From contig NC_092670.1 in assembly GCF_964355755.1 (NCBI RefSeq), positions 7,306,201-7,370,200 of the forward strand: a stretch of DNA of 64,000 nucleotides. Reading direction: 5' to 3'. A model generated the notes under the pieces. That model saw only the letters and a program-made list of their open reading frames with translations, was not told the origin of the DNA and did no database searches. The stretch is from Antedon mediterranea (lineage: Eukaryota > Animalia > Echinodermata). This document shows positions 2,478 through 62,500 of the stretch, in pieces. The position numbers and the translations under genes are program-made. Every line of letters starts with the position of its first letter. Positions within the stretch are counted from its first letter, which is position 1.

Positions 2478-5400
2478 AGCGTACCTCACTATACTTACTG
2501 TACTAACACATTGCTTAGATATTGAACAATGATGTGCTCGCAGCTCTATTGAGATGTAACGGGGTCAGATATAGATAAGAACGAAGTCCAAACCACCAAG
2601 AACAAACACACACAAAATTAATAAATTAATTATTTACTAGATTCATAGTTAGTCTCTAAACTTTATCAGCTATTTAAATACAGAAATAGGGAAGTTGTCA
2701 TAATTGATACGATGATACAATCACATTATCTTAAAAGACTTTTAGAATGTAATTGCCTTACTCCTAATAATACTTAACTTTACAGTTTTAAAATGTACTT
2801 GTATCGATATGTTTTACAGTAGGTTGGCAAATAGAAAAAGAAAGAGAGTTACATAGGAACGGACTCTTTTTTTAAATGTTCAACTTCTGTAATAAGAGAT
2901 GTGATAAAATGTATCACTAAATAATAACTAACTAGCTAATCGAATTTTTTCAGTCCAAAATTATAATATGTAGTGTACAAATATATTATAGTAAAACACT
3001 AGCGGTTCGTAGACTTAATTTAAATTATATATATTAAAAATATATATATCAAAATATATATTTTATATAATAATGGGGTATTCTGTGCCTAAATTACACT
3101 TATGTATCTCAATCATTCCTGGATAGGTCTATAATAAACACTAAGTACTATCAACAGGCAACAGCGACCTGTTCAATTTTTAATTTATATTTACTAGATG
3201 GTACAATGGAAACTGTAATTTCGGTGTAGAAATGTACAAATAGGCTACGCAGGCTATGTGTACCGCAGTACTATGTATAACTAAATGCATGTCGTCCACA
3301 CGGAACGGATAAAAATAACTATAATAGCCTACGGTGATTCCTGCAGTCAAATAAAATTACTTTTAACCTACTATTACTTTTTCAATCATGTTCATACCTA
3401 TATATTATGCAGACATATGTATTACATTTACCTATCAGGCACAATTTGTGTGTTTATCACGGTGCTATAATGTATGGTTACTGAAGTTGCTATGGTATCA
3501 TCTATCTTTTAGAGAACCAAAATACTGTATTTTTTGTAGGCACTTATTTATTATTGAAGGTAATAAGTCTGGAAGAGGGATTATAATGTTTTATTAATCT
3601 CCGACAAGCAATATTTTTGGTTTAAACGTATTCTATACATTAAAATAATATTTTATAAACGTTGTTTGTCAGTTAACATTATAATACTGCACAATTAAAA
3701 CAGCTATTGTAGAAGGAGATAAGATAAACCCGTGGTCCAGAGTTCAATCCTGACCTAGTGTCAGTGTTGTAACTCACGACTCTTCAACTCACTCCCTAAG
3801 CCTCAAATGTTGGATGCGTATGAACAAAAAAAAACAACAAAACTTAAGAAAAGATTATTTTGAGCGGGTATGTTTCAGCATCACGAACTTTTCGTTATGT
3901 AAACTAAACTCGTTTCAATCGTCATTAACTATCTAACTAATCTAAGTGTACTGGTTTTCATTAGGTGTTTAAAATAAGTCCAAAAAACAGTGTGTACCAA
4001 TTTTCTATACCATTGAGTGAAGTTACGCTTGATTACCCGTACATAAATCAATATATAGATTAAAAACTATACCCTTAGGAGATATTCATTGTTTCCTTTA
4101 TATCAGCAAAATGTAAACCATGGAGGTTCCTCCATGTGTAAACTAAGCTGATGTTTCTACAATGTTATACTATATTATAATACCGTGTATGCAGTTTGGC
4201 CGTAATAGAATACAGCATAGCCTGCCACTGTACAGCTTCTTCTGTAAAACAATTATTTCAATCTTCTAATTCCTGCCAGTCAAATCATTGGGTTAGAACT
4301 CCAGTGGTCGATATTTTAAATAATACAGTGATATGTACAAGGTAGGTTAAGTGAATGTATTTAGCAGTAAGGAGATATGGACAAGATGTTAACATGGTGC
4401 ATTTTCATTAACTTTTAATAGAGTGTAGGTAAAAAACTCCTCATCTTTCTAAAATATTGCTTTATAATATCTATAGAACAGTCTTATTCGCCATAAGAAA
4501 GAATGTTTTCCTCGGCAGATCATTTTGTTTGTTTTAGTTTGACCTGTGACAAAATATGATCGGTTTTTATTTTTTTTTATTTTTTTTTTTTTTTTGAATC
4601 CACATAAGAGAAGAAAGTAAAAAAGTTAAATGAAAATTTAAGAAGTTATAGATGCAAAAAAGGATCTGCTGGTTTTGTAAACATTAAAGAACAAAAATAT
4701 TAATATTAATATTAATGTTAAAGGATGAGAACAATATTATGTTAACAGTAAACATTTAGTAAGTAATGAGTATAACAGAGAATATGCATTGTTAAATGAA
4801 AATGTGGTAGATGAAAAAATCAAAAACAACTATGTAAGAAAAAAAATAAGCTTGTTAATGAAAATGTGTTACAGATAATATGTTTAAAAAGAGGAAGCTA
4901 TGTAATCAATGTGATAATATGTAAACAAATGAATAAAACTCTTTAAATAAGTATATGTATACAGATGATTTAACAAACATTGTAAATATAATGATATGTA
5001 TAGTGTATAGTGAAAAATATATGTAAAGAGAACAGTGGGAAATAAAAGTGGGATGAACCCACATAAGATAAAAAAAAAAAATATGATCGGTTTCTAAAAC
5101 GTATTTTTACATTTTTATGACGCACATAATTAAACATGACACTGAATTATAAAAGTTAGAGAATAAAATGGTTCTTGGATATTTCAAGATGCACTGTTCT
5201 CCAAAACATAAAAGTGAATACAACTAAAATTGTAATAGGTCATTTTGTAGTTTTATTAAAAGTTAATCACACAAAAAATAGTAATTTCGCTTATAATTAA
5301 AACGAAGGAATAATTAAATATTGTGTATCTAAACCACACCCCCACCCGACTCCCAAAAATACAAAAACAAAAACAAAAAACGAAATTAACTAAATTTTGG

Positions 5401-8524: not shown

Positions 8525-8846
8525 ATGGGACAGTTATGGGAAAATTTACCAAATACACCAAATGTCAAAACGCCCTCTATAATTGAAGATAGCCGACGTC
8601 CTCATTCCTAAATGCTAATAACTGAATTTAACCCGCTAAACAATCTCTATTAAAATATAATAATATATATTAAAAAGACATCGAAATGGGACAGTTATGG
8701 GAAAATTTACCAAATACACCAAATGTCAAAACGCCCTCTATAATTGAAGATAGCCGACGTCCTCATTCCTAAATGCTAATAACTGAATTTAACCCGCTAA
8801 ACAATCTCTATTAAAATATAATAATATATATTAAAAAGACATCGAA
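8525..8846. repeat. Perfect 161-bp tandem duplication (8525-8685 / 8686-8846)
   Basis: Two adjacent copies from ATGGGACAGTTATGGG to GACATCGAA that read identically. Confidence 0.95.
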
Positions 8847-27353: not shown

Positions 27354-30300
27354 ATGTCAAGTCATGTACAGACGATCCATTATGGAAACCATAATCCACA
27401 ACAAAGTGGGATAATACTAACGCCCACAACACATGTACAACAGGAAGTCGTAATTAATGGAAATGATAGATCCATAAGACTTAACAGTAGTGCACAGGTA
27501 AACGAGCAGTTTTAAAGGGGAACGTTGAAGATGATGATAAAGATGATGTTGTTATAAAGGTTTAATGATATGATAAAGAGTTGATAAAGAAGAAGTTAAT
27601 AAAGCTGAAGATAGATATAATCATGAGCATGATCATATTGATGATGATGAATATGAAGATAGATGGTGGAGAAGTGGTCGAAAGTAATGTAGATGGAGAT
27701 GAATATAATAGTAATATAAGAAGATGATGATAGTATATTTTTATGAAGAATGTAATATGAAGGACGAGTGTAGAAGTTGATTACGAGGAAGATAGTAAAG
27801 AGAAGTTTGTCAAGATGATGGAAACCTTGATGATGTGTGTCATAGAAACAATCTGAGAGCTATCCTAATGTCAGTGGTCTACAATCATAATCTTGTCGAA
27901 CTGAGTCACTTTCATTAAAGGTTAGTGATACTCGTTTGAGAATGCTAGGACATGTACTTCAAAATGACGACAACACTCCTGCAGCTCTTGATATGCCATG
28001 CGTATGCATATAAGGAAAACAATAAAAACTGGTAGAATCGGTAGATCAAATAAGTATTAGTATTAGATAGGGTGTTGATGAAAAAAGATTATTAATGAGG
28101 ATGCCGATTAGAGTAGTAAAACAAACGGAAAAGTGTGTTGGCCCATAACATGTACGATAATTTATAATAATACATATTTAATTTAATGAGTAGTAACAGT
28201 AGTAACGGTCGGTCGGTCTGTCGGTCTGTCTGTCTGTCGGTCCGGTATCACTATGCGTTTTATCGCTTTCTGACCTTATCTTGATATCAGTTTAAAGATG
28301 TATTGTCCCTTGAAACACAAAAAATGAAAAAAAAAGATTCTAAATTTAAATTGGCCATATCAAAGTAATATTAAAGTCATTCACTTTAAGTCGAAAATTC
28401 AAGCCAAAAACTACAAGTTTATGTAATTAACAGGTAAATTAATTTGATTACATTTCGTCTGGAAAATCGTCACGGCCGAAAGTAAACAAAGATTTCAAAC
28501 GATTAGTATGCATTATGCATGATGCTAATTAGGATTGTTTACAACTCGTCGCGGTTGAGAAGGTGTTTTCACACAGATCGCGAAGAAGTTTTATGATTAT
28601 GCATACAGAGTAGCCAAACAAGCGCGTTGCATTATGAGATATGTTTTGATCGAAAACTTTGACTGGAAGTCAAAATAACCTCTGTATTTTTATTCTATTA
28701 TGATACTTCAAAATGACCCACTTTTTTTCGAAATATTAACAAAAATATTTTTTTTTTTAATTAGTCAAAGGGACAATACATCTTTAATCTAGATAAGTAA
28801 ATTTTTCCCAGTATATTCTTTATGGCCAGGAATCGATGTGGTTATGTTTTCACGGTGCGCAATAAAAAATGACGCGGTCTACGCACGATTTAACGAAATC
28901 ACGTTTGTTATCATATCTTCACAACCATGAATCACAAATAAAATTTGGTACTCATAAATTTCAGGACATAAATCATCATATGGCAATACAATTACGTGCG
29001 TAGCGCATGTAACGCATGCGTACGCGCGCTTAAAATTTTCAAAATTTATTTTCGATGAAATAAGAGTACGTTTCAGGCAATTTTAAGCGTTTACAAAATT
29101 GACATGAGTGCGCATATTTTTGCGCGCGCACTGCGCGTTAAATGTTATTGCGCACTCTTTTTGGCCGATTTCTGTTTTCTTGACTTACTTTTCAACTCGA
29201 AATTACGTTATACGAGCACGTCAAATGTGACAGGCTACGCACGTGTAAATTAAAAAAATATAAATGTTTTTAAACATTTCAACATTTTTAAACATGTTCA
29301 GTAATTTCGGTCAGTTGGTAGGTTGGTCGGTCGGTCGGTAAACACGCGACTGCAGCCATCTATATGGCCTTGTTATATACGAAAAGGGCAATTCTTACCA
29401 GGTTATTGATTACTTTTTTCTTTTTTTGTTCATTAGTAAAATACAATTTTATTTGTTGGTTGCTTAAAATAATAAGTGTATAAAAAAGGCTGTCTAATTT
29501 CTTTGTAGTATAGATATTCCAAAACAAAGTGATATTCATTTTCAACTACTGTACGTTGCATTTGCAAACTTTACAGATTCGTTTTTCCTTTTTATTTCAA
29601 CAAAACAAATAAATATATTATTTTGTTGTATTACTTGTTTAGATGTCATTTGGAATCCTGATTGGAATTTGTGGGATTACTGCAGTAAATTATGATTGCA
29701 ATATCTATTTTGGAGCAGGTATTTGGCTGGGAATCATGGTGAGATATAGCACATTTATATAGATTCATCAAGTTCATTAGTTATAAAATAGGCTGATAGA
29801 AAGTTTATTTTCTGTTATGAATCTACACTTAACTATAAATTATTGCCTGAAGAAAAATGTCAGTGGTGGCGGCGGCAGTGAATACGACGATGTCGATGAT
29901 GACGACGACGAAAACAAAATAGTTGATATATGTCAATTCTTGAATATCGGCCCTAGAATTTACTTAATTTATACTGGCATAAAAATGAAGAATTCATGAT
30001 TTCTGCCTTAGACGTCCAGTATTGAACATAGGCCTATTTATGTTCAGAGTACATCATCTCAACTAAGACACCATACCATTGTATATGTAGCTAGGAGGGG
30101 CGTCCAATGGAATGAAGACACTACAGAAGCTTCACAATTTCAAATCACTTTACTTTTACGGATACATTACATTATAGTATGTCATATTTTGATCTATTTC
30201 AGATCATAGCCGGCGCTATCTGTGGGTTGATTGCCAGCATGCACTCGATGGACTTCGAACAAAAGAAATGCATAGTAGGTACTATAAAACATATAACATC

Positions 30301-33300
30301 TTTTAAAAGCTGCTATTACTTTGGTAATATTTATATAGTAGCTAAGTTACTTGATTTCTATAAATAATAATTAATAAACAAGTAAAGAGAGAGAAGAATA
30401 CTGGAAAATAATATTAGCAGATAGACATACCGAAGAACATTTTAGAAAATACAAGAGAAGACAATAGACAATTAAATACTACTATAATAATATAATAGCT
30501 AATATAAGGACTGAACTGAGTCCATGAAATACTTGTCAGACTAACTCAAAGTGAACAGTGTATACAAGCTGTTACACTACACTAAGAGGAGACAGCACAA
30601 TACAACAAATCGATGAAACATTTATCTTTCGTTGCACATACCCTCTTGTGTTGCGTTCTTGTGTTGCGTTCTTGTGTGAACTATTAATAGTAACAAAGAA
30701 CTTACAACACAACAATCTCCTCTTCGTCCGAAGCTTGTAACAATTTTGAAAGGCATTGTAGGATAGAATAATGGGTGGCGCCATTGTGAGCCATGGAGTA
30801 GCGTGCCCGCATCAAATTGGAAAGTCAAAATCATAAAAGGGATCTGCGAATAGTATAGGGGAGGGTGGGGGGTTGGATAGAGTAATTGACTGAGCCCTCT
30901 ATAGGAATTAATAATTTTGACTTACTAGTTTGGAGAGGGCGCTGCTCCATGCTGTGAAATGGCGTCGCCCAGTTTGACCTTTTAACCCTGTACTTCTGAT
31001 ACTGTGTTTTGAATGCAACTTGAAGAACAGGAGATTCTTGAGTTCTTTGATAGTAATACAAATAATAGTTTCTGTACAGAAAATAATGAAGTCATTAACA
31101 ATTGAAGAGCCTAATAAACGGCACTTATAGCAAAATGCAAATATTAGTGTCAATACTTAAGTTCAGCTGAATATACTTTATTCAAAACAAGTTTTACAAT
31201 TAAGATTAATGTTTTTTATTTTTACAGTTAGTTACATTTAATGTAAGCAATATCATTGTCGGCTTGCATGCATTGTGTGTAGGTATCGTATCCTGCGTTG
31301 CTGCTTTTAATGAACCGGAATATTACGAGTTTTATGATTGGTTATACGACGTACCGGTAAGTGAATGCATTCTTTGATCTTTGATTGATTGATTGATTCT
31401 TTCTTTATTTTTCACACAACATTCATAACACATATCAAAAAAAGGAAAATAAAGTACAATAAAGTTTGAAAAACAGGATAACCACAAGCAAGCAAAGCTT
31501 TTTATCTGTGGCATCTAACTTAAAATATAAATTTACAAATACATTACAAAAATGTTTTCATGTAGTAAATCAATTATTAAAGAAAATACAAAGTGCTGTA
31601 ATATAAAAATACATCACAGTCACAGAATATATACAAAAATGTAATTAATTAATTTGAAACGATAAAGATACAAGATGATGAATATGTTATATATAAAGAA
31701 AGAATTCACATGTATTGGAAGTAATAAACTGAATATCTTCTTTTAAGAAAAATAAATGTATAAATAATCATGTTAGAAAAACACTATCGCTTTATGATGA
31801 TGAACAACTCTAAAATGTAAATAGGAAATGCTTTTTTTTTATTTTATATCTATTATGTTGTGTTTATTGTTTTATGTTTTTTATGTAAAATGGTCCTGCG
31901 AAAACAGAAGTGTCGATCAACTTCTCTATGCAGGATCCATGCCATCATTTATGCTATAAAATTATGTTTATAAACGATGAGTAAATAAATGTGAATTAAA
32001 ATGTCTAAGTTAGACATATTTTACAAATGTTGTTTTCACAAAGATATATTGTTTCTTTATAACTATTAATGCGTTTATTTAGTAATAGTTGTTTAAATAT
32101 GGATATATTTTTACTCTATATTATATTTCTTATAAGTTAGACATTTCTTAGACATCCAATAACAACAAAATCATACAAAAGTTTACAGAATTATTTAATT
32201 GGCTGTAATCTATTATACCTATGCTTTTGTTTTATAGAGTTCACCGAAAATTCTTCGAATTTCAATCGATGCGAATTTGGCCATGTGGTCTTTTTGTGAG
32301 ATCGCCACTGTAATATGGGCTTTAGTTCTGGCGTCAGCACATAGGCCTTCGATTAATACGGTACCCAAATCAATTCAGCTGCTACTGTATAACTATTAAC
32401 CACTACCATTATATTATAGGCGGTCCGGGTATTCATTATACTATAATCAATAGGCGTAGAGGATACTAGAAATTAATATAGTAAGCCTACTTGAAGAGAG
32501 TGAAACAGTGTGCTTGAAAGTTAAAATTCTCATTTCTGATCGATTTGAGTTAGGTGCAAACATATTATGTAACTAGTAGTAGGCCTAGCTATATTTTCTA
32601 GCAAACGTAAATAAATGTTCATACAGCAGAAATTAGTTTAGATAACAATAATAATACAGTATAGGCCTAGGTTGTTATGTCCCTCAACCATTTTTATTTG
32701 CTTTACAATATAGGTAGTTCCACAACCAGTCTTACAAACTAACACTGGCGTTACAACTGTACAGTACTACCAACAACAGCAACAACCACCAGGCGGTAAG
32801 CAATTTATTTATTGATAACAAGTATCATACAGTCTTTAAGCTAAAAACTGAATAGTTTTGCTTCTGCAAAACAAAATTAAAAACCAACAATGTTATTTAT
32901 TTATTTATTCCACATTTATTTAGTCATCAATCACATCATAATTGCAATACAACTGATAAAAAGGATCCTGCATAAAAAAGCTGTAGCTTCGTTTGTTTTT
33001 TTTTGCAGGACCCTTTTACATAAGAACCATATAAGGAAGTATAACTTAGATAAAACAGTCATTTCCCATAAACAAAGGTGTTAATCAGCATAAAATAGTG
33101 ATAAAAAGTATTTTTGACCTGTTTTTATACATTTATTTTGTTTCTTTAAAATAACCGGTTTATTATCACCATTGTGAATTCTTTCCACATTTTTGGTGTA
33201 TAAACTGTTGACTGCAAGTTAGTCTTGTGAAGGGAATTTTGAATTCAGTTTCTGTTCTGAGGTTATGAGTAGGCCTAATACTGTCACAGTAATTAAAAAT

Positions 33301-36051
33301 ATTTAAAATATGATGTGGTAATTCATTAAATTTTACATTTGCCATAAATCCTATGACGTTTACTTTGTGAATATCATAAACATTTAATATTTTTAGTTTC
33401 TTAAACAGTGGCTCTGGGGCTTGTCTGAGTTTAGAGAAGGTAATGCATTTTACAGCTCTCTTTTGGAGTTTTAGTATTACTTCACATTCATTTAGACTAG
33501 ACAAAAAGTAGTGAGCCCTCTAGCGGTCATTTGTGATTTCTGAGATTCATCGAAGCGCGACAACATCACCCGGAAATGATGTGAATTTAAAATTTTAATA
33601 GGGGTTAAACTCTTTTAACCAATTGAAAGCCTTAAATTATAGTTCCTTATGAATAATTCATGAGAATAATTAAAGCAAGGGTTGAAGAAGCATGTGACTT
33701 GGTTTTTGGAACAGGATAGCAGTTATGATCGTGTCAGGTAATCATTGAATTTGCTCTTCTTTTTGTTAGATTTTATACGGTTTTTATCAATAATAATATT
33801 GTACATTTTTACGAGACCATAAAAAAATTCCTCAATTTTTTAGTAAACGAGTGACTAAATAAAAAGTTACTATGTAATGTAAATATTCGTTTGACAAAAA
33901 ATGGGCATGTTGATATTTTCAGGTATTTTTTAAATGGCGATTGAAATAGGTAAACAAATCACATGTATAACGGTGGTTTGTGCGAAGCTGGGCCTAGCCT
34001 TGATGGTCCAACTCGTACTGCGTGTTAATCAATGCGTATAAGATACACACGTAGTCGTTTAGGCCAATTTTTTTACATGTTTATTTATTAATATTAGGCC
34101 TTATTCTCATTTATTTTAATTAATGTACTGAATGTACCACACTTTACAACTCTATATAAATTAGATTTTGTACTTGTATTAAATTCAAACGTTTTATGGG
34201 ATTTAAAACATTAAGCTAGGCCTTGTAGTAGGCCTAGGACCACATGCTAGGTTTTTCAGCCTAATTTATCATGCAGTATACCTCTAGCCCATCTTTCAAA
34301 TACATATTTAAATTAACATACTTTTTATATTTCTATATTTTTTATAGGATCTGACTCCAGAAAACATTTGCATCACTTGAAAGCGGCTATTTATGGACAG
34401 CATGTTGACATTTAAAAAAATTTGACCAGCTCTTATTAATTAAATGTCTTTTAAATTAAAGGTTTTCATTATAATGAAATGTACGGTGACAGAAATTTAA
34501 ATGATTCTCATAATTGAGGTTTCTCATAGATTTAATATTGAAGGTAAATAAATAAAGCTGTTTGTTATTCTTGCCTTTAGAAATAAACATGTTGTTAGTA
34601 CTATATTATTAGGCCTAGGCCATTATACAAATTAAAACTAAAAAATACAGTAATCATATTTAAGGCCTACACACAGTACCTTACTTGATTTGATTTTTTT
34701 CAAATATTTAATTGATGAAATAAATGAGTTTGACTTTTCAATTAGTTGCCATTTTATTAGTTTCTGTGTGTTTTTATTTATATTCTTAAAACAATTGTAT
34801 ACAACAACTTTAAAGTATTGCGCAGAAGTGATCAAATTATAGTAGGCCTATTTGTATGTTATTGTCGCTTAAAATTATGCAGTTAAAGTATTTGATTTTA
34901 GGGTGACAGAAACGGTTAGGCAAGAAAAGAAATAAATTTGGGAATTTTGTTATGCGGTAAAAACAATTAAACATAATTTACCCGTAATGCATGTAAATGT
35001 AGAAAACATTTGCTTATGTTAGCGCGACCGAAACTCGCTACTGGGAATAGATCCTGCAAAAGCGACGCGTACACACCTACTCGGGCACCGGTGGAGCGCG
35101 ATCGATAGTAAATATACCCGATTTCAAATGATCATAAAATTCTTTTTAAAAATATCAACATTTTGATTTTTTGAGGATTAAAAGTAAAGATATTGAAATT
35201 TAACATAATATTTACAAATATGTATTTAAAAATTCGGAAACAATTTTAGCGTGATATTAAAACAAACTTTTTAGAGTTCCGCGATTTCCTACGCAGGATT
35301 TGTTTGTTTTCATTGTTAATGGGCGAATGTTACCTAAACTAGAATCGTTATAAATCTTTTAAATTTGTATTATAAGTAATTTCTTTAGTATTCTTAGTAA
35401 CATCGAATGTCTCTAATTAACTAGCAGTTATTTATACTAACTATTGTTCAATAATAAGCGTGTATGAAGTGAAAATCTATAGTAATAATGTTCTTAGTCA
35501 GTTCGTCTCGCTCGCGTGAAGTCTTCGGGTTTCTCAATACAATTCTCAGCGGTAAAGATAGGCTCGCGCTAATGTTTAAATCAAAAGGGCTCTCAAAACA
35601 CTTTTTGTCCAAAATTCGCAATATGACGTGAGTGTGACTTCTAACGTGCTCTTGTATGTATTTCCCATATTAAGTTACCATACTGAAGGCGAGGTAATAC
35701 TAAGGTGTTATACAGACTAATAAGGACTTTATGAGGAAAGCATTCTTCTACTTTTAAAAGTATACCAGTTGCCCTAGACAATTTTTTCCTAATAAGCTAA
35801 TAAGCATACTATATAGCTAGTAGTTTAATTTCGTTATTGCACAGCTCAATTTAGTTTTCATTTTTGTTACAGTGTTCGTGAATACCATACAGCCAAACTT
35901 ACAATACCATTCTTATCCGGGCCAGTCACACTTAGGCCTGCCGCAACCGGGACAACCGCAACCGGGTCAGTCACAACCAGGCCAGTCACGACAACCCGAT
36001 CATCTGCACCAGCCGCACTCGGACCAACCGCTTCCGGGCCAGACTGTTTAA
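27354..36051 (+). CDS. MS4A/CD20-like four-transmembrane protein, copy 4 (~274 aa)
   Basis: Coding exons 27354-27497, 29643-29738, 30203-30274, 31228-31356, 32238-32360, 32714-32795, 35873-36051 (QPGQ repeats). Non-coding first exon ends at 26081. Probable 3'UTR exon from 37161 with AATAAA at ~37352. Confidence 0.87.
28200..29375 (+). mobile_element. Non-autonomous Helentron/DINE-1-like (HINE) element
   Basis: (GGTC/TGTC)n microsatellites near both ends and a 3' stem-loop GCAGCCATCTATATGGCCTTGTT. The 5' boundary is approximate. Confidence 0.6.
28296..28783. mobile_element. MITE with TTAA TSD and AG...CT termini (Kolobok-like), nested in the HINE
   Basis: Perfect 16-bp TIR AGATGTATTGTCCCTT / AAGGGACAATACATCT; TTAA at 28292-28295 and 28784-28787. 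Confidence 0.85.
32893..35800 (-). mobile_element. 5'-truncated CR1/L2-group LINE remnant (end of ORF2, 3'UTR and (AATA)n tail), split by a DNA transposon
   Basis: 35790-35641 translates to GILLKV...LISLYNTLVLPRLQYGNLIW(G)NTYKSTL (one 1-bp deletion) and resumes at 33482 with EVILKLQKRAVKCITFSK...EPLFKKLKILNVYDI, typical of the post-RT region. Confidence 0.85.
33483..35636. mobile_element. Non-autonomous DNA transposon, CAC...GTG termini, 4-bp TSD (Chapaev/CMC-like), asymmetric RSS-like ends
   Basis: TSD ACTT at 33479-33482 and 35637-35640. Removing the element plus one TSD rejoins the LINE peptide NTYKSTL-EVILKLQKR. Ends share inverted blocks CACAYTCA, GACAAAAAGT and GAGCCCT. No transposase ORF. 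Confidence 0.85.
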
Positions 36052-36057
36052 TGTAAG

Positions 36058-36378
36058 CGTGTGAGGGCGTGTGGCGCAGTGTGTTGGACGTTGGACTACC
36101 GATCGTCAGACCTAGGTTCGAATCCAACTCTCGCCGCATTGCTTGTATCCGTAGACAAGATACTTTACTTACGTTGCCTCTCTCCACCCAGGTGTATAAA
36201 TGGGTAGCCAGTTAGATCTAGACACAACTGCGCTGGTTACCGGCTGCATTATGGGAGTATGTTTCCATACGTGTTTGATCCCAAAAAATACTGGGGTAAT
36301 AATGCTTGTAAAGCGCCCTTGAGCATGATTACTCATGAAAAGGGCGCTATATAAATCTGGTATTATTATTATTATAAG
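36058..36378 (+). mobile_element. tRNA-derived SINE with L2-type tail
   Basis: A box TGGCGCAGTG, B box GGTTCGAATCC, core CTCTCCACCCAGGTGTATAAATGGGTA, tail GTAAAGCGCC...GGCGCTATATAAAT...(TAT)n. Confidence 0.85.
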
Positions 36379-38045: not shown

Positions 38046-38938
38046 TGTCACACCAAAATCAGTCCGGGGCAAAATCGGTCCGGCGGACCAGTTTTGCCTG
38101 CCAAAATCAGTCCGGGGGACCATTTCTGGCTGCCAAAACCTGTCCGGCCGGACCAATTTTGGCCGCCAAAACTGGTCCGGCCTGGATTAAATCGGTCCGG
38201 GCAGTAGGACTGTTTTTGGCCGCCAAATATGGTCCGGTCTTACAAATATATGGTGCGCAAAATGAGTCATAATGTATATATCATTAAAAAAAAGGCCATG
38301 ATTAGTCATTATATTGAAAACTACGGGGTTTTTATTTGTTATTTTAATATTATAAATTAAGCCTGTTTTTTTATTATCATTATTAGTAGTAACTCATCAA
38401 TAATTAGTACTAATTGTTAGGCTTTTTGTATACAATATGTATCTCTGCCTGTTTTTAATCTATTTTGTTCTTTTTTAACATCGTCGTTTCCCCATGATGT
38501 TAAAAACAATTTAATTTATTAATTATTTATGGTTAATCAATCAATATATCAATTCAATACAATTATTATAAAACAATTATCCAATATTGATTAGGCTGAG
38601 GAAGGAAAAAGGTCTCAATCATAAATAAAATCTAGCTGGCAATATCAGCGTCTCATACCCATTCGTGTGTGAGGCCGAAATATGAGTGAACACCTAAGTC
38701 ATGTTTTTAGATAAAATACATTTATTTATAGTATTTATCCGACAAGATAACTTACTAATATATATCATGGGATATTTTTCTAGCCATAAACAACTTAAAA
38801 CAGCATCATAGGCCTAGTAATTCAATTAAAATCGACAGAAGAAAAGCCCGGACCGATTTTGGCAGTGGCGGACTGCTTTTGGCCACAATTTTAGAGCAAA
38901 AACTGGTCCGACCGATTTTGGCCATATTTATCGTGACA
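38046..38938. mobile_element. Non-autonomous Ginger-like DNA transposon with palindromic subterminal repeats
   Basis: TGTCAC...GTGACA termini, 4-bp TSD GAAC (38042-38045, 38939-38942), ~32-bp CCAAAATCGGTCC-GG-GGACCA-TTTTGG units at both ends. Confidence 0.8.
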
Positions 38939-40071: not shown

Positions 40072-43000
40072 TTAACTATCAACGTCATACACGTCAGAGC
40101 GGTAAGAACACCAATCGCGTGCTTCGTAGGTTTCAACCTGAATTGTTGCCACGTGGAGGTTGAACCTTGATTTCAGAAGCTTTTGTGCTCTGCTTAGAAT
40201 ATCTTGTCCATCTACTGGCTTCCCTTCATATAGGTTGGCTACAAGATAATAAGGAAATATATTCTATTAGAAAAACACAAGCAGGGTAAACACGCTGTGC
40301 CACTACAAAATCAAGGTCTTATTATTCTTAACTATCATGAAGAAAAGAATACTCAGTTTGAGAATATGTGGTTCTCATGTGAAATCCAGAACGGTCACTG
40401 GCGGGGAAACAGTTTTAACTCCCGTCAAAGTGGTTAAACTACTAACTCTGTGTTTCCACAACGGTAAACAAATTACTTTTTTATTAACATCGCATTCCCC
40501 TGTTACGAGAAGTTGAATAATCATTGTGGCGACGTATGCAAATCGGTATGGAATATACGTCGTCGGTTCCTACTTTTTTCTCACTTTTATTTGCGTCGAT
40601 AGGCCTACATTCCGTCTACGTCCTTCGCGTTGCGTCCTAGTGGGAATCAAGCTTAATGGTTACTCACCTAATGTTAGATGCACAGCTATTGCATTCACGC
40701 CGATCGTCAGTGACCATATATGTAACGAATGAATACTCTCAACTCCGTCTATTTCAACTAATGTACGCCTTATGTTTGTGTAATCTAAATTTCTTGGCGA
40801 AGCTATGTTGAGAAGAAAATATATTCAAGTTATACAAGACTTATAACATTAAATGATAAACATAAAGCTTCCTGTACCAGGCTTTGATTTGTAATTAGCT
40901 TTTTTTGCCGAAGATCACGCATATAATAGAACATATATATAATATATATATATAATATATACAATGTGTACAGTATGTGTGCCGAAGGGCTCCTAATCTA
41001 TTTTAAAAATGCGTACATTGGTGTAGATAATATACAGAGGCCTACATTTTTTGCCATAGGTAATATTTGTTGTTGATATTAATTTACCATATTATAAGTT
41101 CATCAGCAACTTCATATGGATAGAGAGTCGTGGTCCATTGTGTTCACAGAGCGTGTTTATTTGATTCGACATCGGCAATGTTCTTTAATGTTACCGCCCA
41201 GTACGAATCCTTTTCTCGTTTATCCCTGGTTGTAATATAATATAGAATACAACATATAATGTGAACACGAACATCTTTGACAAATGTGTGTACATACCTG
41301 CCATTAAAACCTTCATAATATCGAAAGAAATTCCAACTGTAGTTATAAGAACCAAGATTGCGAAGAGGAAAGTACAAATAGGATCGAGAATACCAAGATC
41401 AGGCTATAAATAAAACAAAACAAAAGACAAAATACAAGTGACATGTTCTTTCTTAGTGTATGGCAACATTAAAAGTCAAAAGTGTTGAATTAACAACAAG
41501 TTATTAAAGTATGACTGTTCAGAATGGTTCTTTCAATTCAACTGTTTTATTAATAAGGTAGACTTCCAATTCTCAAGGTATTTCTTGATTCAAAACACCA
41601 CAAGATATGGATGTTTCCAAGCTAATTATAGTTCTGACAACATATTTTTTTTTAACGAATATTAAGCTGAATCGCCGCCTAGGACCTAGAAAGATGGTTT
41701 GTGAGATGTCGTGTAGTGACGTAGCTATTATTATGGTTATTGGTAACCAACATTGGTTTTTACCATTTTACTTACGTTTATATAAATAATGATAGCGGCT
41801 ACTAGTACTACAGAACTTTGGATCATGTCACCGATCACGTGAACCATTGCTGTGCGCCGGTTGCCGCCATCTTCGTCGTAGAAACCACTGTAAATATCAG
41901 CTACAGCATTCAACTGCGCACGATCACGGGTTGAAGTTAGGCACATCTGCGCATGTGCAGGGCAGTATGTATGAAGAAGCAACGATATCCTACATAAGGA
42001 GAGACCAATATTGTTAGATTAATTTGTTACCAATATTAAACATTATGTTTAAAAAGCGTTAAAATGTATTATTAGCGGCGTGTGTGGTGGTCTCGGGTAC
42101 TTGTTGTGGTGCGCCCCTATTTTAGTTAAAAGTTTTGAATTTACCACACAGAGGTGTCGCTAATTTAAAACTGTATTATCTCCTCTTAATTTGGCTACCA
42201 ATAGAATCAAAACCAAAGATTTATTATTAATGCATGACACACGTGTGCTCTACCTAGCCGACATACACATTATCAGTACGCACGTCACAATATCAACGAC
42301 CAATTCTTAGTTGCCAAAAATATTAATTCCTTATTTCTCAATTTACACAGACGAGCGGTAACGGTCAGCGGAGCAAACAATATAGCATCTATGTTATTGC
42401 TTATGACCATTTACGTGAAGAGGACGGGCGGTTAGGATACACATTCATGTGGGACATACAAGCTACGCGGATTTCCGCTTACCGTTACCGCTCGTCTGTG
42501 TAAATTGGCTTTAAGTGTGTTGATTCATGCGTAACTTATCAGTATGAAATGTGTCATTAAACTTACAGAAAATTAACAGCTACGCCGCATGCGGCAGTAA
42601 TCAGCATAATATCCGATTGTACATCATACTTTTGTAGACGTACTCTCTCGATTCCAAAGTAAACAAGTATTCCAGTCAAAATCCAAATACATAATATAGA
42701 CAATAATGTAAAAATTACCTCTAGAAAAAAACAAACAAATCAAATATTTAACATCCATAAAACATTGTGAGATGAAACCTTAATCACATTTGACAAAGAT
42801 GGCGTCGCCAGTTTGGGTTAGACTTAGACGCAGATTTGTCTCATTATTGTTTTGGCAACGTGTTAAGGCAGAGAAACAATGAATAATACATGAACATTAT
42901 TATTTTTTAAATTGTATAAATTAACGTATGACGTCAGCATGAACAAACTACAAAATGTTAATGACACTAAGCAGCTATTTGTACAGAAAGTAAATAAAAT

Positions 43001-46000
43001 ATAACATAGAAATGAGAAAGGAACAAAAATGAATGTGGATGAAAAGAAAAGTCATTTTTTTTTCTATCTCCTATAAAGATTTAAAAAAAACGTTCACTGT
43101 AGAAATAAAATCGTGATCATTACGGAAATGGGGCATTGTATTAACAAAAACAACGTATGTTGTATATAGGTCAGTGTGTAATTATTGTAAAGTACAAATC
43201 GCCTTAGGGTGATTATTAAGCCTAAAATGAGTGGCTTAGTCATCAGTGGAAGCATAGTGACCGATGAATGTGAACTCACTCTATAAATCTCATTAAAGAC
43301 GTTTAGGATTAGGCGTAGGTGAAGTTGGTTCATATTCTGTACACGACGCCATTGACTGAATACCATTTTAAAAAATTGAGAGAGAAGAAGAGAAGAGAAA
43401 TTGATACGTGCGTTGCACTGCTGAGGTATTTGTTTTCACTTTTTGCTTACATCTTGTCTCAGAGGTAAAACACGTAACAAGCAGCACATGTTAACACCTT
43501 TATATCGAAGTACCGTAGAAGGCATCATACATACCTAATCGATACCAACCAAATGTCATCGATTTTGAAGGAGAACGCTCCGACATCCAAAGTGCAAATA
43601 GACTGATAAGAATAGTTATTAGATCCGTTAGCATGTGTGCAGCGTCCGTGAAAATAGCAAGACTATTCGACATATACCCTCCTAAAATAAAATGTACGTA
43701 AACAACAGTTTAAGATGGACGTTGAAAGTGGGACATTCATTTGAAGTAAATGTCATTATTAGTAAAAACCAAAGAGTCTCCGAAACGACAAAGGAAATTA
43801 TAAACGTTACTTTATTAATTACATCTGAATATTTAAATGTAGGCCTACCCTTACGGTGATTTAACGTTCACGTAGTAGGCTAATCAACGTGAATGTTTAA
43901 AACAAATCAAAATGACTGTCGCCTAACGTCACATAGTATAAACAAACGATTGTAGAGTACTTTTCCTTGAAGAGTAAAGTTGATTTCTCAACGTACATAT
44001 CTTCAATATGGCAAATTAGAAGAAGGTTGTAGTTGGGAGATGTGGAAGGCATATTGCTTAAAATTAAACTTTGAACTTTAAGGGAAAAAAGTCTACTATC
44101 TACAATAAATACCTATAATTTCGCCAGCTGTAAAAATGAAGCACACGATAGCTGCTAATATCAACTTTTGTCGAGCGACTCTTACATCACCACGCCGAAC
44201 ATACAACCTCCTTTCGATGTCAGCGTTGAAGTCGTCGAACGCTCCGTAGTCCATGTGGCCGGGAGGCATGAGGGAGATTCCATCATCACTCTTTCCACCT
44301 TTCCTTCTTGCTCCTTGCCTCGGACTTGACGGAGGGATTCTTGAAAATAAAAAAATAATATAATAAAGAAATGTTTTGTACTAGTTAGGGTAGATAGGGT
44401 CATTTGTATAAGGTTTATCTCGATCTCGCTATAGTATTCAAGTAATTTTTCTTTTGGATGATCCAAAGTTTAATACCAGCTTTCGCTGGTCAACGACGCA
44501 GCTTACTACGACGACTTTTATTTGACTTTGGATCATCCAAAAGAAAAATTACTTGAATTTTAGATTTTAGGTCCATTAGTTTCACGTTATCTTGCCAAAA
44601 TGTTTATGCATGCATCTTTACATAACGGGTAGCCTACAGTTGAATTATCGCTACATGTCATTCATCAATACATATTTCTTTACGCAATCACCTCTCTGTC
44701 AAAAACGTGCGGCTCAATCGACCACCAACCAATCTCGATCCACGCCGTGAGTCAATATACGACCTACTGCACTACGCCTACTCACATCACGTTTCGTTTC
44801 AAATGTGAAAGGGACGCTTCAACATGTCAAATAGTGAGATACTCCTGGGTATGCAAATATTGCCTATACGTCTGCTAAAAACCTAAGTGCGGAAATATCG
44901 ACAAATCGTCATACTACCGTGACATGAAAGTATACTACGCCTACTCACAATATCAACAGGTAATACTGTAAATCCTCTAGTTTCGCTATCAACCAATATC
45001 GATCCAACCCGTAACATGAATGTATATTACTTCATACACAGTTACGTTTTTTAAAACAATAACCATGATGAAGGTAATCTATTACGTCCACTCACAATCA
45101 AAAGGCAAACCGTATGAAAGTCAGACTACTTTAATTACGTTCCAAATACAATTACAGTAGTAACCATCATAAAAGTGAACTAGCTTACCCAAAATTATGT
45201 ATATCATTAAAGCTTCAACCTATTAATGATCAAGACACAACCTTGCGCTGATTACTATATCTGCATTGTGGGAGTATGTTTCCATAATGACTGGGGTAAT
45301 AATGTTCAGCGCTTAAGATTGGTTCCCACTAGGACGTAAACGCAACGCAAGCGTTTTAACCAATGACAAGCGAAGTTATAGACAGTTAGCAATCACAAGC
45401 GAATAAGCCATCGCTTGTGATTGGTCAATTCACTTCTTGCGTTGCGTTACGTCCTTGCGTTGCGTCGCTAGTGGGAACCACGCCTTAGTTGTTTCATTAG
45501 GCGCTATATAAATCCAGGATATTATTATAATATTATTAAACTTAGATATGACATAAACAAACAACAGCAATCTAACTCAATCAATTCCCTTAATCTAACT
45601 CGATTATCTCATCAGAACTCATTCGAACATTACCATCAAAGAACGTGATATGTTTACATATTCCTCTCCACACACAACTTCCAACGTAATAATTACATGT
45701 ACCATGACCACACTGTGGAACAACTTACCTGAAAACATTTGAAAATCTGTATTGAAGAAAAGCTTTTCTCAAATAATACCACTTTTACAGTTTGTTTTTC
45801 ATTTTTGCAATTGGTCTTTTCTTTTTCCTTTTTTTCTATTTGTAACCCGTCTGTTTTTTTGTACTTTTTTAGGCTTTTGCCCTCTTCTATAATTTAGTCA
45901 TGCTTTGTATTTTGTCAAAGAAAATAGATGTTTACCCGAAATGTATTCCACCCACACTTAAATATGTTTTGTGAACGATAGCAGATAATCGAACTTTATT

Positions 46001-56800: not shown

Positions 56801-59507
56801 AATTGTCCTTACGTTGCATCCTAGTATAGTGGAAAGTCTTACTATACCTAAAATGAACAGCAATAATTCAAACGTCTGCTTAAAAATAAGTTATAACTAT
56901 ATATATTTTTCAATCAGACACTTTAAAAGAAATTTGTATTCAGTACGGAGTACGTGGTAACGCCTTAAAGGGCAATTCCGTATTTAAAATTCGTAAGGTT
57001 TAACATGTATCTATATTGTAATATCCCTAGCGCTGAACGTCATAAAACAAAACGACTGATACTCAAAATAGGCGCGCGCGGGAGCAGAGCAATTACAGAC
57101 TAGTCGGCGTATTCAGCAGGTTTATTTTCGTTGTCGTATTATTTATATCGGCTTGTGCTATGTGTTATAAAATGTATTATATAAGTGGCTATGTATATGT
57201 CTGCTTTATTTACACTTACATAATTACAAATAGGGTAATGATGTATAATAACAATAAACAACAGGGAACGAAACGAATTGTCGACGAAGTCAACAACAAA
57301 CACTCGAAACGCGATCATTTTAATTATTTGTCACAGTTTGGAATTTGCATTTGCAGTTTCTTATTTGCATTTGAAGATCTAATTATTTGATTTCGAATAA
57401 ATTACGTTACTGTACCATTTTTTCAATAGCAGCAGCTTTCAAAAAGTGTATAATCACTATATCAGACGATTTGAATAGTATGAACGGAAAACGCATTATT
57501 TACAGGTGTTAACCAACTTAAAGGATTTTAAAGAACATAAATTATATAATAAGTTGTATAAGCTCGTCGTCTTCAATGCACATTTAAAATGGATGCACAT
57601 TTAAAATGAATGCACTTTATTAGGATAGTGCTTGTGTATAAATAAGCAATTTGTTTCCTTACAATATGTATACATATCTTCAAAAATGCATGAGACATTA
57701 GTGTATGCGGGTGGTTAAACCTCTGCAGAGCAAAAATGAAGTTCTTGTTTTAATGTAAATATTTTTCATTATTCAGAAATTTAAAATGTATATTAAAAGC
57801 TGATTGATTGATTGAATACTTACCATTGGCTTTATCTAGTCTTAGCCCAGCCCACATTCCTTCTTTGAAAGACGTCTTACCAAGGAATGCGACTTCACCG
57901 ATCCGAGATTTGCCAAATCTTGCTCTTACTCCCAGTCGCACCCAAGAGGGGATGCACACACTCGGCTCTTCCATGCTTGTATCATGCACGCTGTTACTGG
58001 ATGTGTTCCAACTATACACTGAGAGCTGACTTCCTAAGCTAACAATACCAGTGTCAGAGCTGCTGTTACTATCAGCGTAAAAGCTACCGACACTACTTGT
58101 TTCGATGTCAGCATTCATCTTGCTAGCTTTCCTTTGCTGGTTCTTGTCGATGCTATTTCCTTTGTTGAAGTAACAGTTCAAAGTTTTGACGTCCAGTATA
58201 GCTGCTGGACTTTCATTGCTCTCATTGTGTTGAACTATTGAAATTGGCTTAGATATTCCTTCAAAGAACTCTGGTTGAAAATCTTTGCACATGTTATTAT
58301 TATTGTTGCTATTGCTATTACTGATACATTCTTTATCAATATGAGTTGTTTCTGTAGAATCATTAATCACACCCTCTAACAAGTTATCTGTGTCGTGCTC
58401 GAAAAGAATATCAGGAATGTGCATATTTGTTGCAACATTTGCATCGTTTTCAGTTTCATCCATAATATTCATAATTGTATTAAAGTCATCTAGTACATTT
58501 GTTGAAGCGTCTACATCTGAATGTTCATTTATACATTCTTGTTGAGATGAGCAATTATTAGATTCATCAAAAGTTAATTTATCAAACTTAAAATATTGAT
58601 TTCCATCTTTTTGGAATGTTTTCTCACTGTCTTGAGTAGGTAATAAAGAAGTGACAGTTTCATGACATTTCTTTCTGGGTGAAGTTTCTGTTACGTTTAA
58701 CAGTGGTTTTGATTCCTTCTGAGGGAATTGGTGCGATAATGGTGTGGGTTCCTCCTGCAAATGTTTTCTATGTACTGTTGTAAAATCATGGTTAGTACTT
58801 TTATCTAAATCCTCTATCCATGACTTTCTATTTTGGCTAATCTCTTGAATGTTAGAATCTTCTAAATTGTCATCAGTGTCATCGTCGTCAAACCCTATAC
58901 ATGTAAGACTAAGAAAATCTGAAAAGTTCCGTGACCCATAACCGCTTGACACTGAAGAGACAGGACTTGATCTGCCACCTACTAACTCAGAACTTTCTTT
59001 TTTAAGCTGGAGGCTAGAATGTCTTCCAGGAACTTCTTTGGCAAATGGTTCTCTTTTATGATTTTGAGAATTATTATCAAAGACCTCAGCTACCTCTTTA
59101 ACAGTTGTTTCCTTTCGTGTTGGAGAGCTTAAAGATTCAGTTAATACATTTTGACTGATTCGTTCTTGTTCAAGTGGATGATTAAAAATACTAGCCGTGC
59201 TGTTGATAATATTGTTTTTACATAGTGATGATCCATTGTTCAAAGTACAATTTTCACTTACAAAATCAGAAGATTTATCACTACTATAAGTTGTACAGGG
59301 AGCAGAGGAAACACTGTAAATAGGGATGGTGTCTAAGGTACTTGGTCCCAAGTCTTTAGTTATTGCTAAACTACTAAGGAATGTGGAAGTGCTTGCGGTC
59401 CCATCAGGAGAAACATTCAAACTTTTGTCCAAAATTATCTTTTCTATGTAAAGTTCATACGATGAAGTCTTGTTTTCTAACACTGATGGCTCAAGATATG
59501 TATCATT
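53829..59507 (-). CDS. C-terminal exons of a CAP-Gly domain protein, kinesin-3 KIF13B/Khc-73-like; upstream exons not identified in the window
   Basis: 1684-bp Ser/acidic-rich exon 59507-57824 ending PSWVRLG...[26 protein letters not shown]|, spliced in phase to 53971-53829 ([25 protein letters not shown]...stop), completing the CAP-Gly domain. KIF13 identity is inferred from architecture only. Confidence 0.85.
54140..54480. repeat. Degenerate purine-rich minisatellite (~50-bp unit, GAAGGATACGAAGACTATCG...CAGCCGG)
   Basis: About five imperfect units; resumes at ~54915-54990 after an intervening sequence. Confidence 0.7.
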
Positions 59508-62500
59508 CTGTGAATCAAATACAAATAAGATTAATTACAATATCATGGATGCAAAGGCTACATAGTCTTTTCAATACATGGAAGTCTATTACAATTATGG
59601 TAGAAATCATACTTATAACAACTATAACACATGTTTGCATTGAAATCAATAGTTAATATCCTACAGCAATAGCTGTTAGTTGCACTTTCTACATATTTTA
59701 ATATATATTTAAACACTAGATAACTTTTCACACACTGATTATAGGTATATTGACTTCAGTTGAGGGAAATAGTTCAATCAAACTCAAAAAGATTTTGGTA
59801 TAAAGTTTAGTTTCACCAGATTTTAGGCACATAACATAAACTCATGGTTGGCATGTTGCCATATAATTACATAGCAACCTACACTTTTAGATTTACATTA
59901 TGGCGAGACATATTGTTGTTAAAATACATAAAAATAGAGAAAAACAAAAGAAATTATAAAAAAAAAAATTGAAGAACTTTTTTGAGGTAGACCTTTCACA
60001 TTAGCAGTGATGAGAACCATGACTGTATATTTCCCATGGTATGAAGATAATGAGGTCATGTTTGAATTTATCTCGATTGAAATTACTGTAAATGAAAACA
60101 ATGTATTCTCCCATCATACTTCAACAGTATCTAATGAATCTGACCATAAAGTATCAAAAAGCTTCGCAAACTATATTAACTAAAAGAAGCCAAGAAGCTA
60201 AAAGACTAAAAAAGATAAGCATGCATATAAAAACTGTAATTGTTATGTAATTGTTCTTTATATATCTGAACTTGTGGTAATTTTTCAGTACTGACGCCAC
60301 TAATAATACAAAAACATGCAATCTAAAAGACTGTACAACTACAATAAAAAAAATGTATAGTAATAAATAATGAGTATAAAAATACTAAAAAAATTTAAAA
60401 TAATTTGGTAAAAAGGAAGAAAAAGAACACCCAACATAATATTTTAATACAGAATTTTGCAATAAAGTACTATCTGTAGTATAAGGTGATCTATTCTTAA
60501 GACAAAATATTAATATTTTCTTATTTACTGACCGACGATTAATTGAGTTTTGCCATTTGCTGGTGTAACAATATCTATTTGACAAGTCTTGAAAGGTTAT
60601 TTTTAAATACAAGTGATAAATCCAATTTTAAGGAAATATTAAATTACATGTAATATGATAGCATTTTTATTTTTAAATAAGGTTATAAGATATGCATCAG
60701 TTATAATACTATGTATGTGTTATAAATTGAACAGATAAAATAGAAAGAGTGCATGTTGTTAATTTAAATACAAATGTCAAAAATAAATTGAGTAGAAAAA
60801 CAAATTTAATTTCTTTCAATAATTATGAGTGTGAATACCAATTATTTTTATATTATTATTTATCAATCAATAATCTATTTAAATTGTTAATATTAAGTAT
60901 CTGTACTTGCAAATATAATATTTCAAATTATAATTCTAATTTTAATATCTTTTAACATCATATATTATAATAACAATGGTACATAGAATATATATTATTT
61001 ATTTATATATTTCTTCTCCATGGTAAATAATTGACCTTTTGAGGATAATGACTTTTTTTCATAGCATACCTGTACATGTATTCTTTACAAATACTCTTTT
61101 TTAAAGATTGTTATGTTGCCAAGGCAAAAGATCAATTAAAAGACAAGGTTATTCAGTATATTTTTAATTTGTGTTAATGACATAATATGAATTCTTGAAT
61201 AAACCAGGGAGTTGTAATTCAATGCACTCACCAAAATAGATTTGAACTATAATAAAAAAAAATCATCACAAATTACAACAGACTACACATAAACTAATTA
61301 ATAAGAAACTTGTTTATTGTGATAACGACAAAAATAAACAGATTCCATATTCTACGCTATAATATTTACATGCAAAAAAGAAATATTAAAGGCATGCTGT
61401 GCAACTTTACCTACCAATTTTAATCATAGTTGTCCGTTTGACTATTGTGAAAAAAAAACACATCAAAAAATGAACCATTCAAATCAATAATTAATATAAT
61501 ATTGAATAATGTTACTGTATTGTATCACACAAATTATAATAAAAATATCATAAACGTTATGAACAACAGAGAGTGCAACAAACTTATTTTATTAAACAGT
61601 AGGTTTTGTTTAGTTTGAGAGATGGCATTGGTATTTATTTCAAGGCCTACTGTATTACAAAATACAGATTAATATTATGGATCAATACAAATAAATATTA
61701 AAATATTTATATTGATAGTATGAAACGAGTAAGAAAAATGGCTTAATGTTGATAATAGTTTAATAGTACCAGATTTGATATCTACAATTAAGGTTCTGCT
61801 GTAAAAGAGCCTAAAAGTGCAAAATGTGTCCAAATGGTGGAGCCCGATGTCGCACATTTCATATCTCTCAGGTTTCATATCATCTTCCTGTAGGTACTGT
61901 ACAGAACCTTGTTTTTAGTATATTCGCACATGGGGATTCCGCTAAGGGGCCCTTTGTGTTGAGCTGCCACCAACAGTGCTTATTTTTCTGTTCAAAGACA
62001 GGGGCTTAGATGGACACCTACTCGTTCACTGCACTGGGTTCTTGTGCACATAAGTCAGATGTGCATTGTATCTCTAGTTTTAATCTGTACGTGAGGAGAC
62101 ATGTTTGGGGAGAGATTTCAACATGTGCTAACTTTATGGCTATGGTTTGAAGTGTCCCTGTAACGCTTGGTGTGGAATATGAGAATGGGGTTAGGTATGT
62201 TATAACCAAATATAGTACCTATGTATTGAGTATATCCGTATCAGTATTTTTGGACAAGACATAGGTATGTTAGTGGTAGATGTAATTAGGAGAAGACAAA
62301 CATTTGCAAGAAACGTTAAAAAAATCAATAGATTCAGAAGGATATATTAATACGCTTTATGTATGCATACTATGATTCTATAACTTTCTAAGAAAATTAA
62401 TACCTACTTTATCTGCATACAAATACCTAAAATAAATGTATTGTTTACACTACATATTGCTGATATTTTGTACAACAAAGCGATATTTATGCTACTGGCA

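What the first reader, a model, noticed from the sequence alone, without database searches (positions are those of the whole stretch)
33483..35636. DNA transposon whose two ends mimic a 12/23 pair of V(D)J recombination signals (11/21-bp spacers)
Seen: left end is CACATTC (33483-33489) + 11 bp + ACAAAAAGT (33501-33509). Right end, read inward, is CACACTC (35636-35630) + 21 bp + ACAAAAAGT (35608-35600). The spacers are dissimilar in sequence and differ by 10 bp, about one helical turn. Boundaries are independently fixed by the ACTT TSD and the rejoined LINE peptide. Established: the RSS is CACAGTG-12/23-ACAAAAACC; Transib/ProtoRAG/RAGL elements have CAC ends with 5-bp TSDs, while Chapaev elements have CAC ends with 4-bp TSDs and a transposase N-terminal region similar to that of RAG1. 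Inference: this may be a non-autonomous member of a Chapaev-like family using a bipartite one-turn/two-turn end code (5/7 heptamer, 7/9 nonamer matches), outside the canonical RAGL lineage and relevant to the origin of the 12/23 rule.
Basis: partly seen in the sequence, partly recalled or inferred. Interest (0 to 1): 0.88.

Follow-up and report, generated by a model that had tools for sequence, protein, structure and literature searches.

The report
Young crinoid transposon, unequal RSS-like ends
This is one copy of a young, gene-less jumping-DNA family in a feather star whose two ends carry the same short signal one DNA turn apart, like antibody-gene recombination signals; that layout is already known from RAG's closest transposon relatives, and what is likely new is finding it on an element with a 4-base insertion footprint, which would point to the more distant Chapaev group.

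Summary
Contigs of two studies show the empty site, shorter by 2,158 bp. The element has about 35-40 times single-copy depth, so it is a young family. Both spacers are the family state, and 6 of 9 listed right-end pieces keep 21 bp; 3 differ by one base and none has 11. The host is probably the crinoid Antedon mediterranea. No transposase remnant or partner was found, so the Chapaev call rests on CAC ends plus one 4-bp TSD. That TSD could also be 5 bp with a lost C. One-turn asymmetry is published for Transib5, TransibN1-3_AG and PflRAGL-A (12/22), all with 5-bp TSDs. The new part is only its likely presence outside that clade. A pairing rule and homology to the RSS nonamer are untested.

The parts
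33483..35636 (+). Non-autonomous DNA transposon copy, 2,154 bp, CAC...GTG
   Evidence: empty-site joint skips 2,158 bp in X1 and X5
33479..33482 (+). Left target-site duplication ACTT
   Evidence: 5-bp alternative ACTTC discussed (5 letters fit both sides)
35637..35640 (+). Right target-site duplication ACTT
33483..33489 (+). Left terminal heptamer CACATTC
   Evidence: X5 piece 9 (depth 188) starts at 33483 with no other letter
33490..33500 (+). Left spacer, 11 bp
   Evidence: X5 piece 9 covers it, its one gap matching the row at 33601
33500..33509 (+). Left internal box GACAAAAAGT (nonamer-like ACAAAAAGT at 33501-33509)
33513..33519 (+). Third shared block GAGCCCT, 3 bp after the left box
35630..35636 (-). 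Right terminal heptamer CACACTC
   Evidence: X1 piece 6 (depth 494) ends at 35636
35609..35629 (-). Right spacer, 21 bp
   Evidence: no gap in 6 of 9 listed pieces that span box and terminus
35600..35609 (-). Right internal box GACAAAAAGT (ACAAAAAGT at 35608-35600)
35586..35592 (-). Third shared block, 7 bp after the right box; GAGCCCT in the window, GAGCGCT in family contigs (35588 G>C)
33713..33737 (+). 3' part of exon 1 of a spliced transcript (true start not known)
   Evidence: X7 contig and X5 joint; donor CAG|GTAATC
33738..34347 (+). 610-bp GT..AG intron
   Evidence: joint 33735>34346 (cut +2) in X5 and X7, none in X1 or X6
34348..34741 (+). Exon 2, ending at a poly-A run in the X7 contig; no long ORF
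33070..33482 (-). Multi-copy LINE-like repeat, left half of the insertion target (start approximate)
   Evidence: depth of hundreds and joint; open frame 33166-33519; LINE label from a recalled motif
35637..35798 (-). Multi-copy LINE-like repeat, right half of the insertion target

Best explanation
This is a recently inserted copy of a young, gene-less cut-and-paste transposon family with fixed unequal ends, likely moved in trans by a Chapaev-type (CMCT-clade) DDE transposase that would cut at the terminal CAC and likely bind the internal GACAAAAAGT box with a second domain. Shown: boundaries, empty site, many near-identical copies, the family-wide 11/21 layout, a spliced joint inside the element, and no coding capacity. 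Inferred: (1) the enzyme class, from CAC ends, a 4-bp TSD and mostly AT-rich flanks; (2) that the box is a transposase site, because the last 70-80 bp stay alignable in diverged relatives and in another organism while similarity falls below 80% further in; (3) that the 10-bp offset keeps both boxes on one helical face, so a synaptic complex would favour one short plus one long end, as RAG's nonamer-binding dimer does. My odds: real mobile family 0.97; Chapaev-type enzyme 0.65; offset used as a pairing rule 0.4; box homologous to the RSS nonamer 0.2.
For: Empty site at depth 430 (X1) and 134 (X5), 2 of 4 runs laid, skipping 2,154+4 bp. Element depth about 420 against 10-12 on unique flank in X1 (contig depth is only a rough guide). 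The window copy differs from family contigs at 11 listed bases and 3 one-base indels (tables cut). Family left end unchanged in X5 piece 9; family right end gap-free in X1 piece 6. 6 of 9 listed right-end pieces keep the 21-bp spacer, including one from organism D whose heptamer reads CACATCC in the same register (20 of 38 pieces listed). Several different flanks follow 35636, and at least 5 of 9 listed begin with A, unlike the mostly C-starting GC-rich Transib targets. Chapaev hallmarks are CAC...GTG and a 3-4 bp TSD (PMC4079192). Shared 10-mer chance 0.46%.
Against: No transposase: none of 47 in-element ORFs reached a Pfam cut-off, 0 hits for 6 read-through frames, one spurious tandem-repeat hit. 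Only one TSD could be read, and it is ambiguous by one base; the window differs from family contigs by 3 homopolymer-length indels (33601, 35009, 35663). 3 of 9 right-end pieces differ by one base, and one copy changes 2 of 9 box bases; these may be dead copies. The third block is offset by 14 bp, out of helical phase. TSD length is labile within Transib (bioRxiv 10.64898/2026.08.26.747230). Left ends of diverged relatives could not be read base by base.
Confidence: 0.58

Rival explanations
1. It is a non-autonomous Transib or RAGL-type element with the already published 12/23-like ends; the true TSD is ACTTC (5 bp) and one C was lost at the left junction, or this lineage has a shifted TSD length.
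For: Five letters fit both sides of the joint. Three homopolymer indels separate window and family contigs. Spacers are exactly 1 bp shorter than PflRAGL-A's 12/22, whose 3' box also ends in AAAGT. The short end lies upstream of the transcript, the 5' short / 3' long polarity of Transib5-type ends. In a 12/22 register the box matches the Transib nonamer at 6/9 with AA at positions 5-6. Echinoderms carry RAGL-A.
Against: A C after a 4-bp TSD has 16% chance, against my rough 1-3% for a lost base in one G/C run. The target is AT-rich and most other listed flanks start with A or T. The ends share no TR2 or extended TIR beyond base 8 and do not fit the RAGL consensus CACTWMCAAAC. No RAG1L/RAG2L remnant.
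Confidence: 0.25
2. Chapaev-type element with ordinary imperfect TIRs: the box is a generic transposase or host-factor site, the 10-bp offset is a frozen accident of one ancestor, and the RSS likeness is an A-tract coincidence or convergence.
For: The heptamer match is uninformative (29%) and a 9-11 bp offset has 12% chance. All relatives seen descend from one family. The third block is offset by 14. piggyBac shows that asymmetric ends arise without RSS ancestry. One relative alters the box.
Against: A 7/9 nonamer match at these spacers is a 1% event per end. The register is held across two organisms while the interior diverges. The layout parallels PflRAGL-A closely.
Confidence: 0.35
3. Assembly artefact or chance juxtaposition, not a transposon.
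For: No listed contig spans the filled junction; the filled site was not seen in X1 or X5.
Against: Empty site, high depth, several flanks and sharp contig ends at 33483 and 35636.
Confidence: 0.02

Closest known systems
Chapaev transposons, 4-bp-TSD groups (CMC/CMCT clade; PMC4079192, PMC4411706, PMC12730594, passages read)
   Same: Invariant CAC...GTG termini; TSD within 3-4 bp; marine invertebrate host.
   Different: No transposase here, so the Chapa domain and core are untested. I found no description of 11/21 or other one-turn ends for Chapaev. The 2007 Repbase Reports descriptions and Panchin & Moroz 2008 could not be read. Chapaev3 has short symmetric TIRs and a TWA TSD, which does not fit.
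PflRAGL-A of Ptychodera flava (PMC10629977; passages and supplement excerpts read)
   Same: CAC heptamer, A-rich box, 10-bp spacer asymmetry, short end at the 5' side; by my count from File S2 the spacers are 12 and 22.
   Different: 5-bp GC-rich TSD, conserved TR2 next to the heptamer, RAG1L and RAG2L genes. Here: 4-bp AT-rich TSD, no TR2, no genes, spacers 11/21.
Asymmetric Transib families Transib5, Transib2_AG, TransibN1-3_AG (PMC1131882; passages, parts 1 and 3 of 3 of Fig. S4)
   Same: Non-autonomous members exist with RSS12-like 5' and RSS23-like 3' ends.
   Different: 5-bp GC-rich TSDs such as CASTG/CAWTG, CACA(A/G/T)TGG termini, longer TIR identity.
V(D)J recombination signal sequences (12/23 rule)
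   Same: CAC, then an A-rich nonamer-like box one or two turns away; 7/9 match.
   Different: Spacers 11/21 rather than 12+/-1 and 23+/-1; the box ends GT, not CC; an extra third block; no evidence of RAG recognition.
piggyBac LE35/RE63 ends (PMC7351741, passages read)
   Same: Shared internal motif at different distances from the two tips; asymmetry is needed for activity in cells.
   Different: Unrelated superfamily, TTAA target, 17-bp insertion; a mechanistic analogue only.

Membership tests
Chapaev | 5'-CAC...GTG-3' termini | tested here: met
Chapaev | 3-4 bp TSD (4 bp outside Chapaev3; that split is partly recalled) | tested here: inconclusive
   4 bp is the best reading at the one site readable; a 5-bp reading with one lost C is not excluded
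Chapaev | Transposase with Chapa zinc finger and C(2)C / H(3-4)H DDE core | tested here: inconclusive
Chapaev3 | 3-bp TWA TSD, short symmetric TIRs | tested here: not met
Transib | 5-bp, GC-rich TSD | tested here: not met
   4-bp ACTT as assembled; other flanks mostly start with A or T; one-base caveat; TSD length labile in Transib
Transib | CAC plus AA at nonamer positions 5-6 with RSS-like spacing | tested here: met
   met at 11/21 and at 12/22; 21-22 is at or just below the 23+/-1 range
Transib | Transib transposase | not testable with these tools
RAGL (A or B) | Convergent RAG1L and RAG2L genes | tested here: not met
   no such ORFs in this copy; non-autonomous RAGL elements exist
RAGL (A or B) | Heptamer followed by conserved TR2 shared by both ends | tested here: not met
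   ends diverge after base 8
RAGL-A / asymmetric Transib end layout | 10-11 bp spacer difference, short end 5' | tested here: met
   11/21, family-wide; polarity taken from the spliced joint
V(D)J RSS | Cleavage only of a short/long pair (12/23 rule) | not testable with these tools
   needs an excision assay

The most novel reading that the evidence does not exclude
A recently active Chapaev family in a crinoid enforces a one-turn/two-turn pairing rule through a box homologous to the RSS nonamer. The 12/23 logic would then predate the split of Chapaev from Transib/RAG, and the young family would offer a live enzyme to test it.
Probability: 0.15. Interest if true: 0.8.

Novelty: new variant of a known kind. 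Interest (0 to 1): 0.42.

Why it matters
The origin of the 12/23 rule is debated between a RAGL-A source (PMC10629977) and a Transib seed (PMC8355894); both place it among 5-bp-TSD elements. If a 4-bp-TSD Chapaev family uses the same one-turn offset, the asymmetry is either older than those lineages or easily re-evolved, and either result weakens arguments that trace RSS ancestry from end geometry alone. The family is young and appears polymorphic, so an intact transposase may exist for assays. If the TSD proves to be 5 bp, this is just another asymmetric Transib/RAGL derivative.

Tried and rejected
No host genome was available, so copies could not be listed and TSDs could not be tabulated. 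Strict end patterns found 0 loci in viral contigs and 0 in metagenome contigs. Looser patterns gave 30 viral, 118 metagenome and 71 prokaryote-genome loci. A screen of all 219 loci found no convincing BLAST match (best E 0.058); the 189 non-viral loci showed a flat spacer distribution and no paired ends with a TSD, so all were rejected as chance. Pfam on 47 in-element ORFs of 22 aa or more (47 of the 59 inside the element were sent, plus one running into the right flank) and on six read-through frames found nothing real. Exon 2 looks by eye like the end of a ZAD/Chapa zinc finger, but a search of 1.84 billion proteins gave one hit, a tandem-repeat translation: rejected. The LINE label was not confirmed (Atlas unavailable). 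No RNA holder is on record; X5 is only guessed to be RNA. X6 holds 99%-alike pieces at depth 2-3 only, possibly carry-over, and X11 matched only the flank in the right-end stretch; neither is used as evidence. Earlier notes by sequence or place gave nothing. Panchin & Moroz 2008 is not held, Repbase Reports are not in the library, and bioRxiv supplements (Table S2 of the Nozomi preprint) are closed; these may already describe Chapaev end asymmetry.

Full report
Observation. All motifs and coordinates are as stated. The shared block is ten bases, GACAAAAAGT, and a third block GAGC(C/G)CT follows after 3 bp on the left and 7 bp on the right. Against 1,296 background CAC-starting 60-mers, a shared 10-mer has 0.46% chance and a 7/9 nonamer match at these spacers about 1% per end. 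The 5/7 heptamer match (29%) and the 10-bp offset alone (12%) are weak.

Host and setting. An exon at 1758-2564 is 100% identical, over 89% of the query, to an NCBI protein named from the crinoid Antedon mediterranea. The element sits in a multi-copy LINE-like repeat within what appears to be the last intron of one gene of a tandem array.

It is a real, young family. 15 runs from 6 studies hold the element or part of it; I laid 6 of them. In 2 of the 4 runs, contigs join 33478 to 35637, skipping 2,158 bp, at depth 430 and 134. These are mostly paralogous copies of the flanking repeat without the insertion. In X1 the element has depth near 420 against 10-12 on unique flank, roughly a few dozen near-identical copies. 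The window copy differs from the family contigs at 11 listed bases and 3 single-base indels (tables cut). No listed contig runs from the element into this flank in X1 or X5, which hints that the insertion is polymorphic; contigs cannot prove absence.

The asymmetry is not private. X5 piece 9 (depth 188) starts at 33483 and has no other letter over 255 bases. X1 piece 6 (depth 494) covers 35580-35636 with one substitution, no gap, and stops at the tip. Of 38 pieces laid on the right end, 20 are listed and 9 span both box and terminus. Six have no gap. Two, probably one copy seen in X1 and X5, lack one base (placed at 35609 for X5) and change 2 of 9 box bases. One in organism D lacks one base of the A-run. 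None has the 11-bp spacer. In organism D and in diverged X1 copies the match falls below 80% about 70-80 bp in, and one D copy reads CACATCC in the same register. One diverged left end starts at 33483 with 27 differences in 150 bp, but their places were not shown, so spacer drift against box conservation is only partly tested.

No enzyme. Contigs of X5 and X7 show a 610-bp GT..AG joint that X1 and X6 lack. The X7 contig carries a template-switch-like leader (recognised from memory) and a poly-A run at 34741. This suggests a retained + strand transcription unit, though neither run is on record as RNA. No ORF or read-through frame hits a transposase family, and the single hit of a 31-residue search was a tandem-repeat artefact. 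Pattern scans of viral, metagenome and prokaryote collections gave only chance matches.

TSD. As assembled it is 4 bp. Five letters, ACTTC, fit both sides of the joint, so a 5-bp TSD with one C lost reads the same. The window does differ from family contigs in three homopolymer runs. A chance C costs 16%; a lost base in a given G/C run costs roughly 1-3% by my estimate. At least 5 of 9 other listed flanks begin with A (those rows are partly selected by matching the window's A), unlike Transib's mostly C-starting GC-rich targets. I put 4 bp at about 0.8. A 2026 preprint warns that TSD length varies within Transib (passages).

Mechanism. Shown: excisable unit, duplication of target bases, fixed unequal ends. 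Inferred from RAG, Transib and piggyBac: a trans-acting DDE enzyme cuts at CAC, a second domain binds the box, and the 10-bp offset keeps both boxes on one helical face so that a short/long pair is favoured. The third block is offset by 14 bp and does not fit that phasing.

Comparison. Chapaev is defined by CAC...GTG and 3-4 bp TSDs (passages) and shares the Chapa/NZD domain with RAG1 (passages). RSS12/RSS23-like ends are published for five Transib families (passages, supplement part). PflRAGL-A has a 10-bp asymmetry (passages), 12/22 by my count from its supplement, one base longer than here at both ends and with the same polarity. All have 5-bp TSDs. piggyBac needs asymmetric ends without any RSS ancestry (passages). 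Searches (listings, plus the passages cited) showed no paper describing such ends for Chapaev, but the primary Repbase descriptions are not in the library. An earlier AI note on another genome (e1-9549352) reports unequal conserved ends in a Chapaev family; it is a lead that I could not check.

Verdict. A genuine young non-autonomous CMCT-clade transposon with family-wide 11/21 ends. It looks like the published asymmetric Transib/RAGL-A ends and most likely belongs with Chapaev, but membership hangs on one slightly ambiguous TSD and no enzyme. Interest is moderate (0.42) and would rise sharply if the partner is a Chapaev transposase that needs the short/long pair.

Noticed in passing
window 33462-35666 (X1 record 6): A single-copy-depth contig covering the unique flank 35666-36088 joins to 33462: an allele lacking the element and about 35 bp of flank. 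Possibly an excision scar; only 20 letters on the short side, so weak.
   Followed up: no
window 33514-33525: The left third block extends to GCCCTCTAGCGG, which on the minus strand resembles the CTCF core motif (motif recalled, not tested). A YY1 site in ProtoRAG TIRs is the subject of PMC7481187 (listing only).
   Followed up: no
window 34348-34440 (+): Exon 2 reads by eye like the end of a ZAD/Chapa-type zinc finger with a stop at a cysteine position; no database support.
   Followed up: yes
window about 9300-36050 (+): Tandem array of 4-5 paralogous multi-exon membrane-protein genes with Pro/Gln/Tyr-rich tails, MS4A/CD20-like by eye; Pfam on 5 single exons gave no CD20 hit.
   Followed up: partly
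window 34376-34516 (X5): Contig depth 1,382 on exon 2 against 140-230 on the rest of the element, consistent with an abundant non-coding transcript if X5 is RNA.
   Followed up: no
window 36060-36200: Very high-depth tRNA-like SINE start (depth above 10,000 in X1, many loose ends); SINE label by eye.
   Followed up: no
window 42339-42507, 44436-44558, 28289-28790: Short inverted-repeat elements (34-, 40- and 43-nt arms), probable MITEs of other families.
   Followed up: partly
window 38084-38914: Array of 32-34 bp palindromic units, likely a satellite or transposon subterminal repeat.
   Followed up: no
window 8525-8846: Perfect 161-bp tandem duplication, recent or an assembly artefact.
   Followed up: no
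window 933-2564 (-), 41737-44469 (-), 57750-59534 (-): Host exons: OATP/SLCO5A1-like, a cation-efflux (ZnT-like) gene and a CAP-Gly protein.
   Followed up: partly
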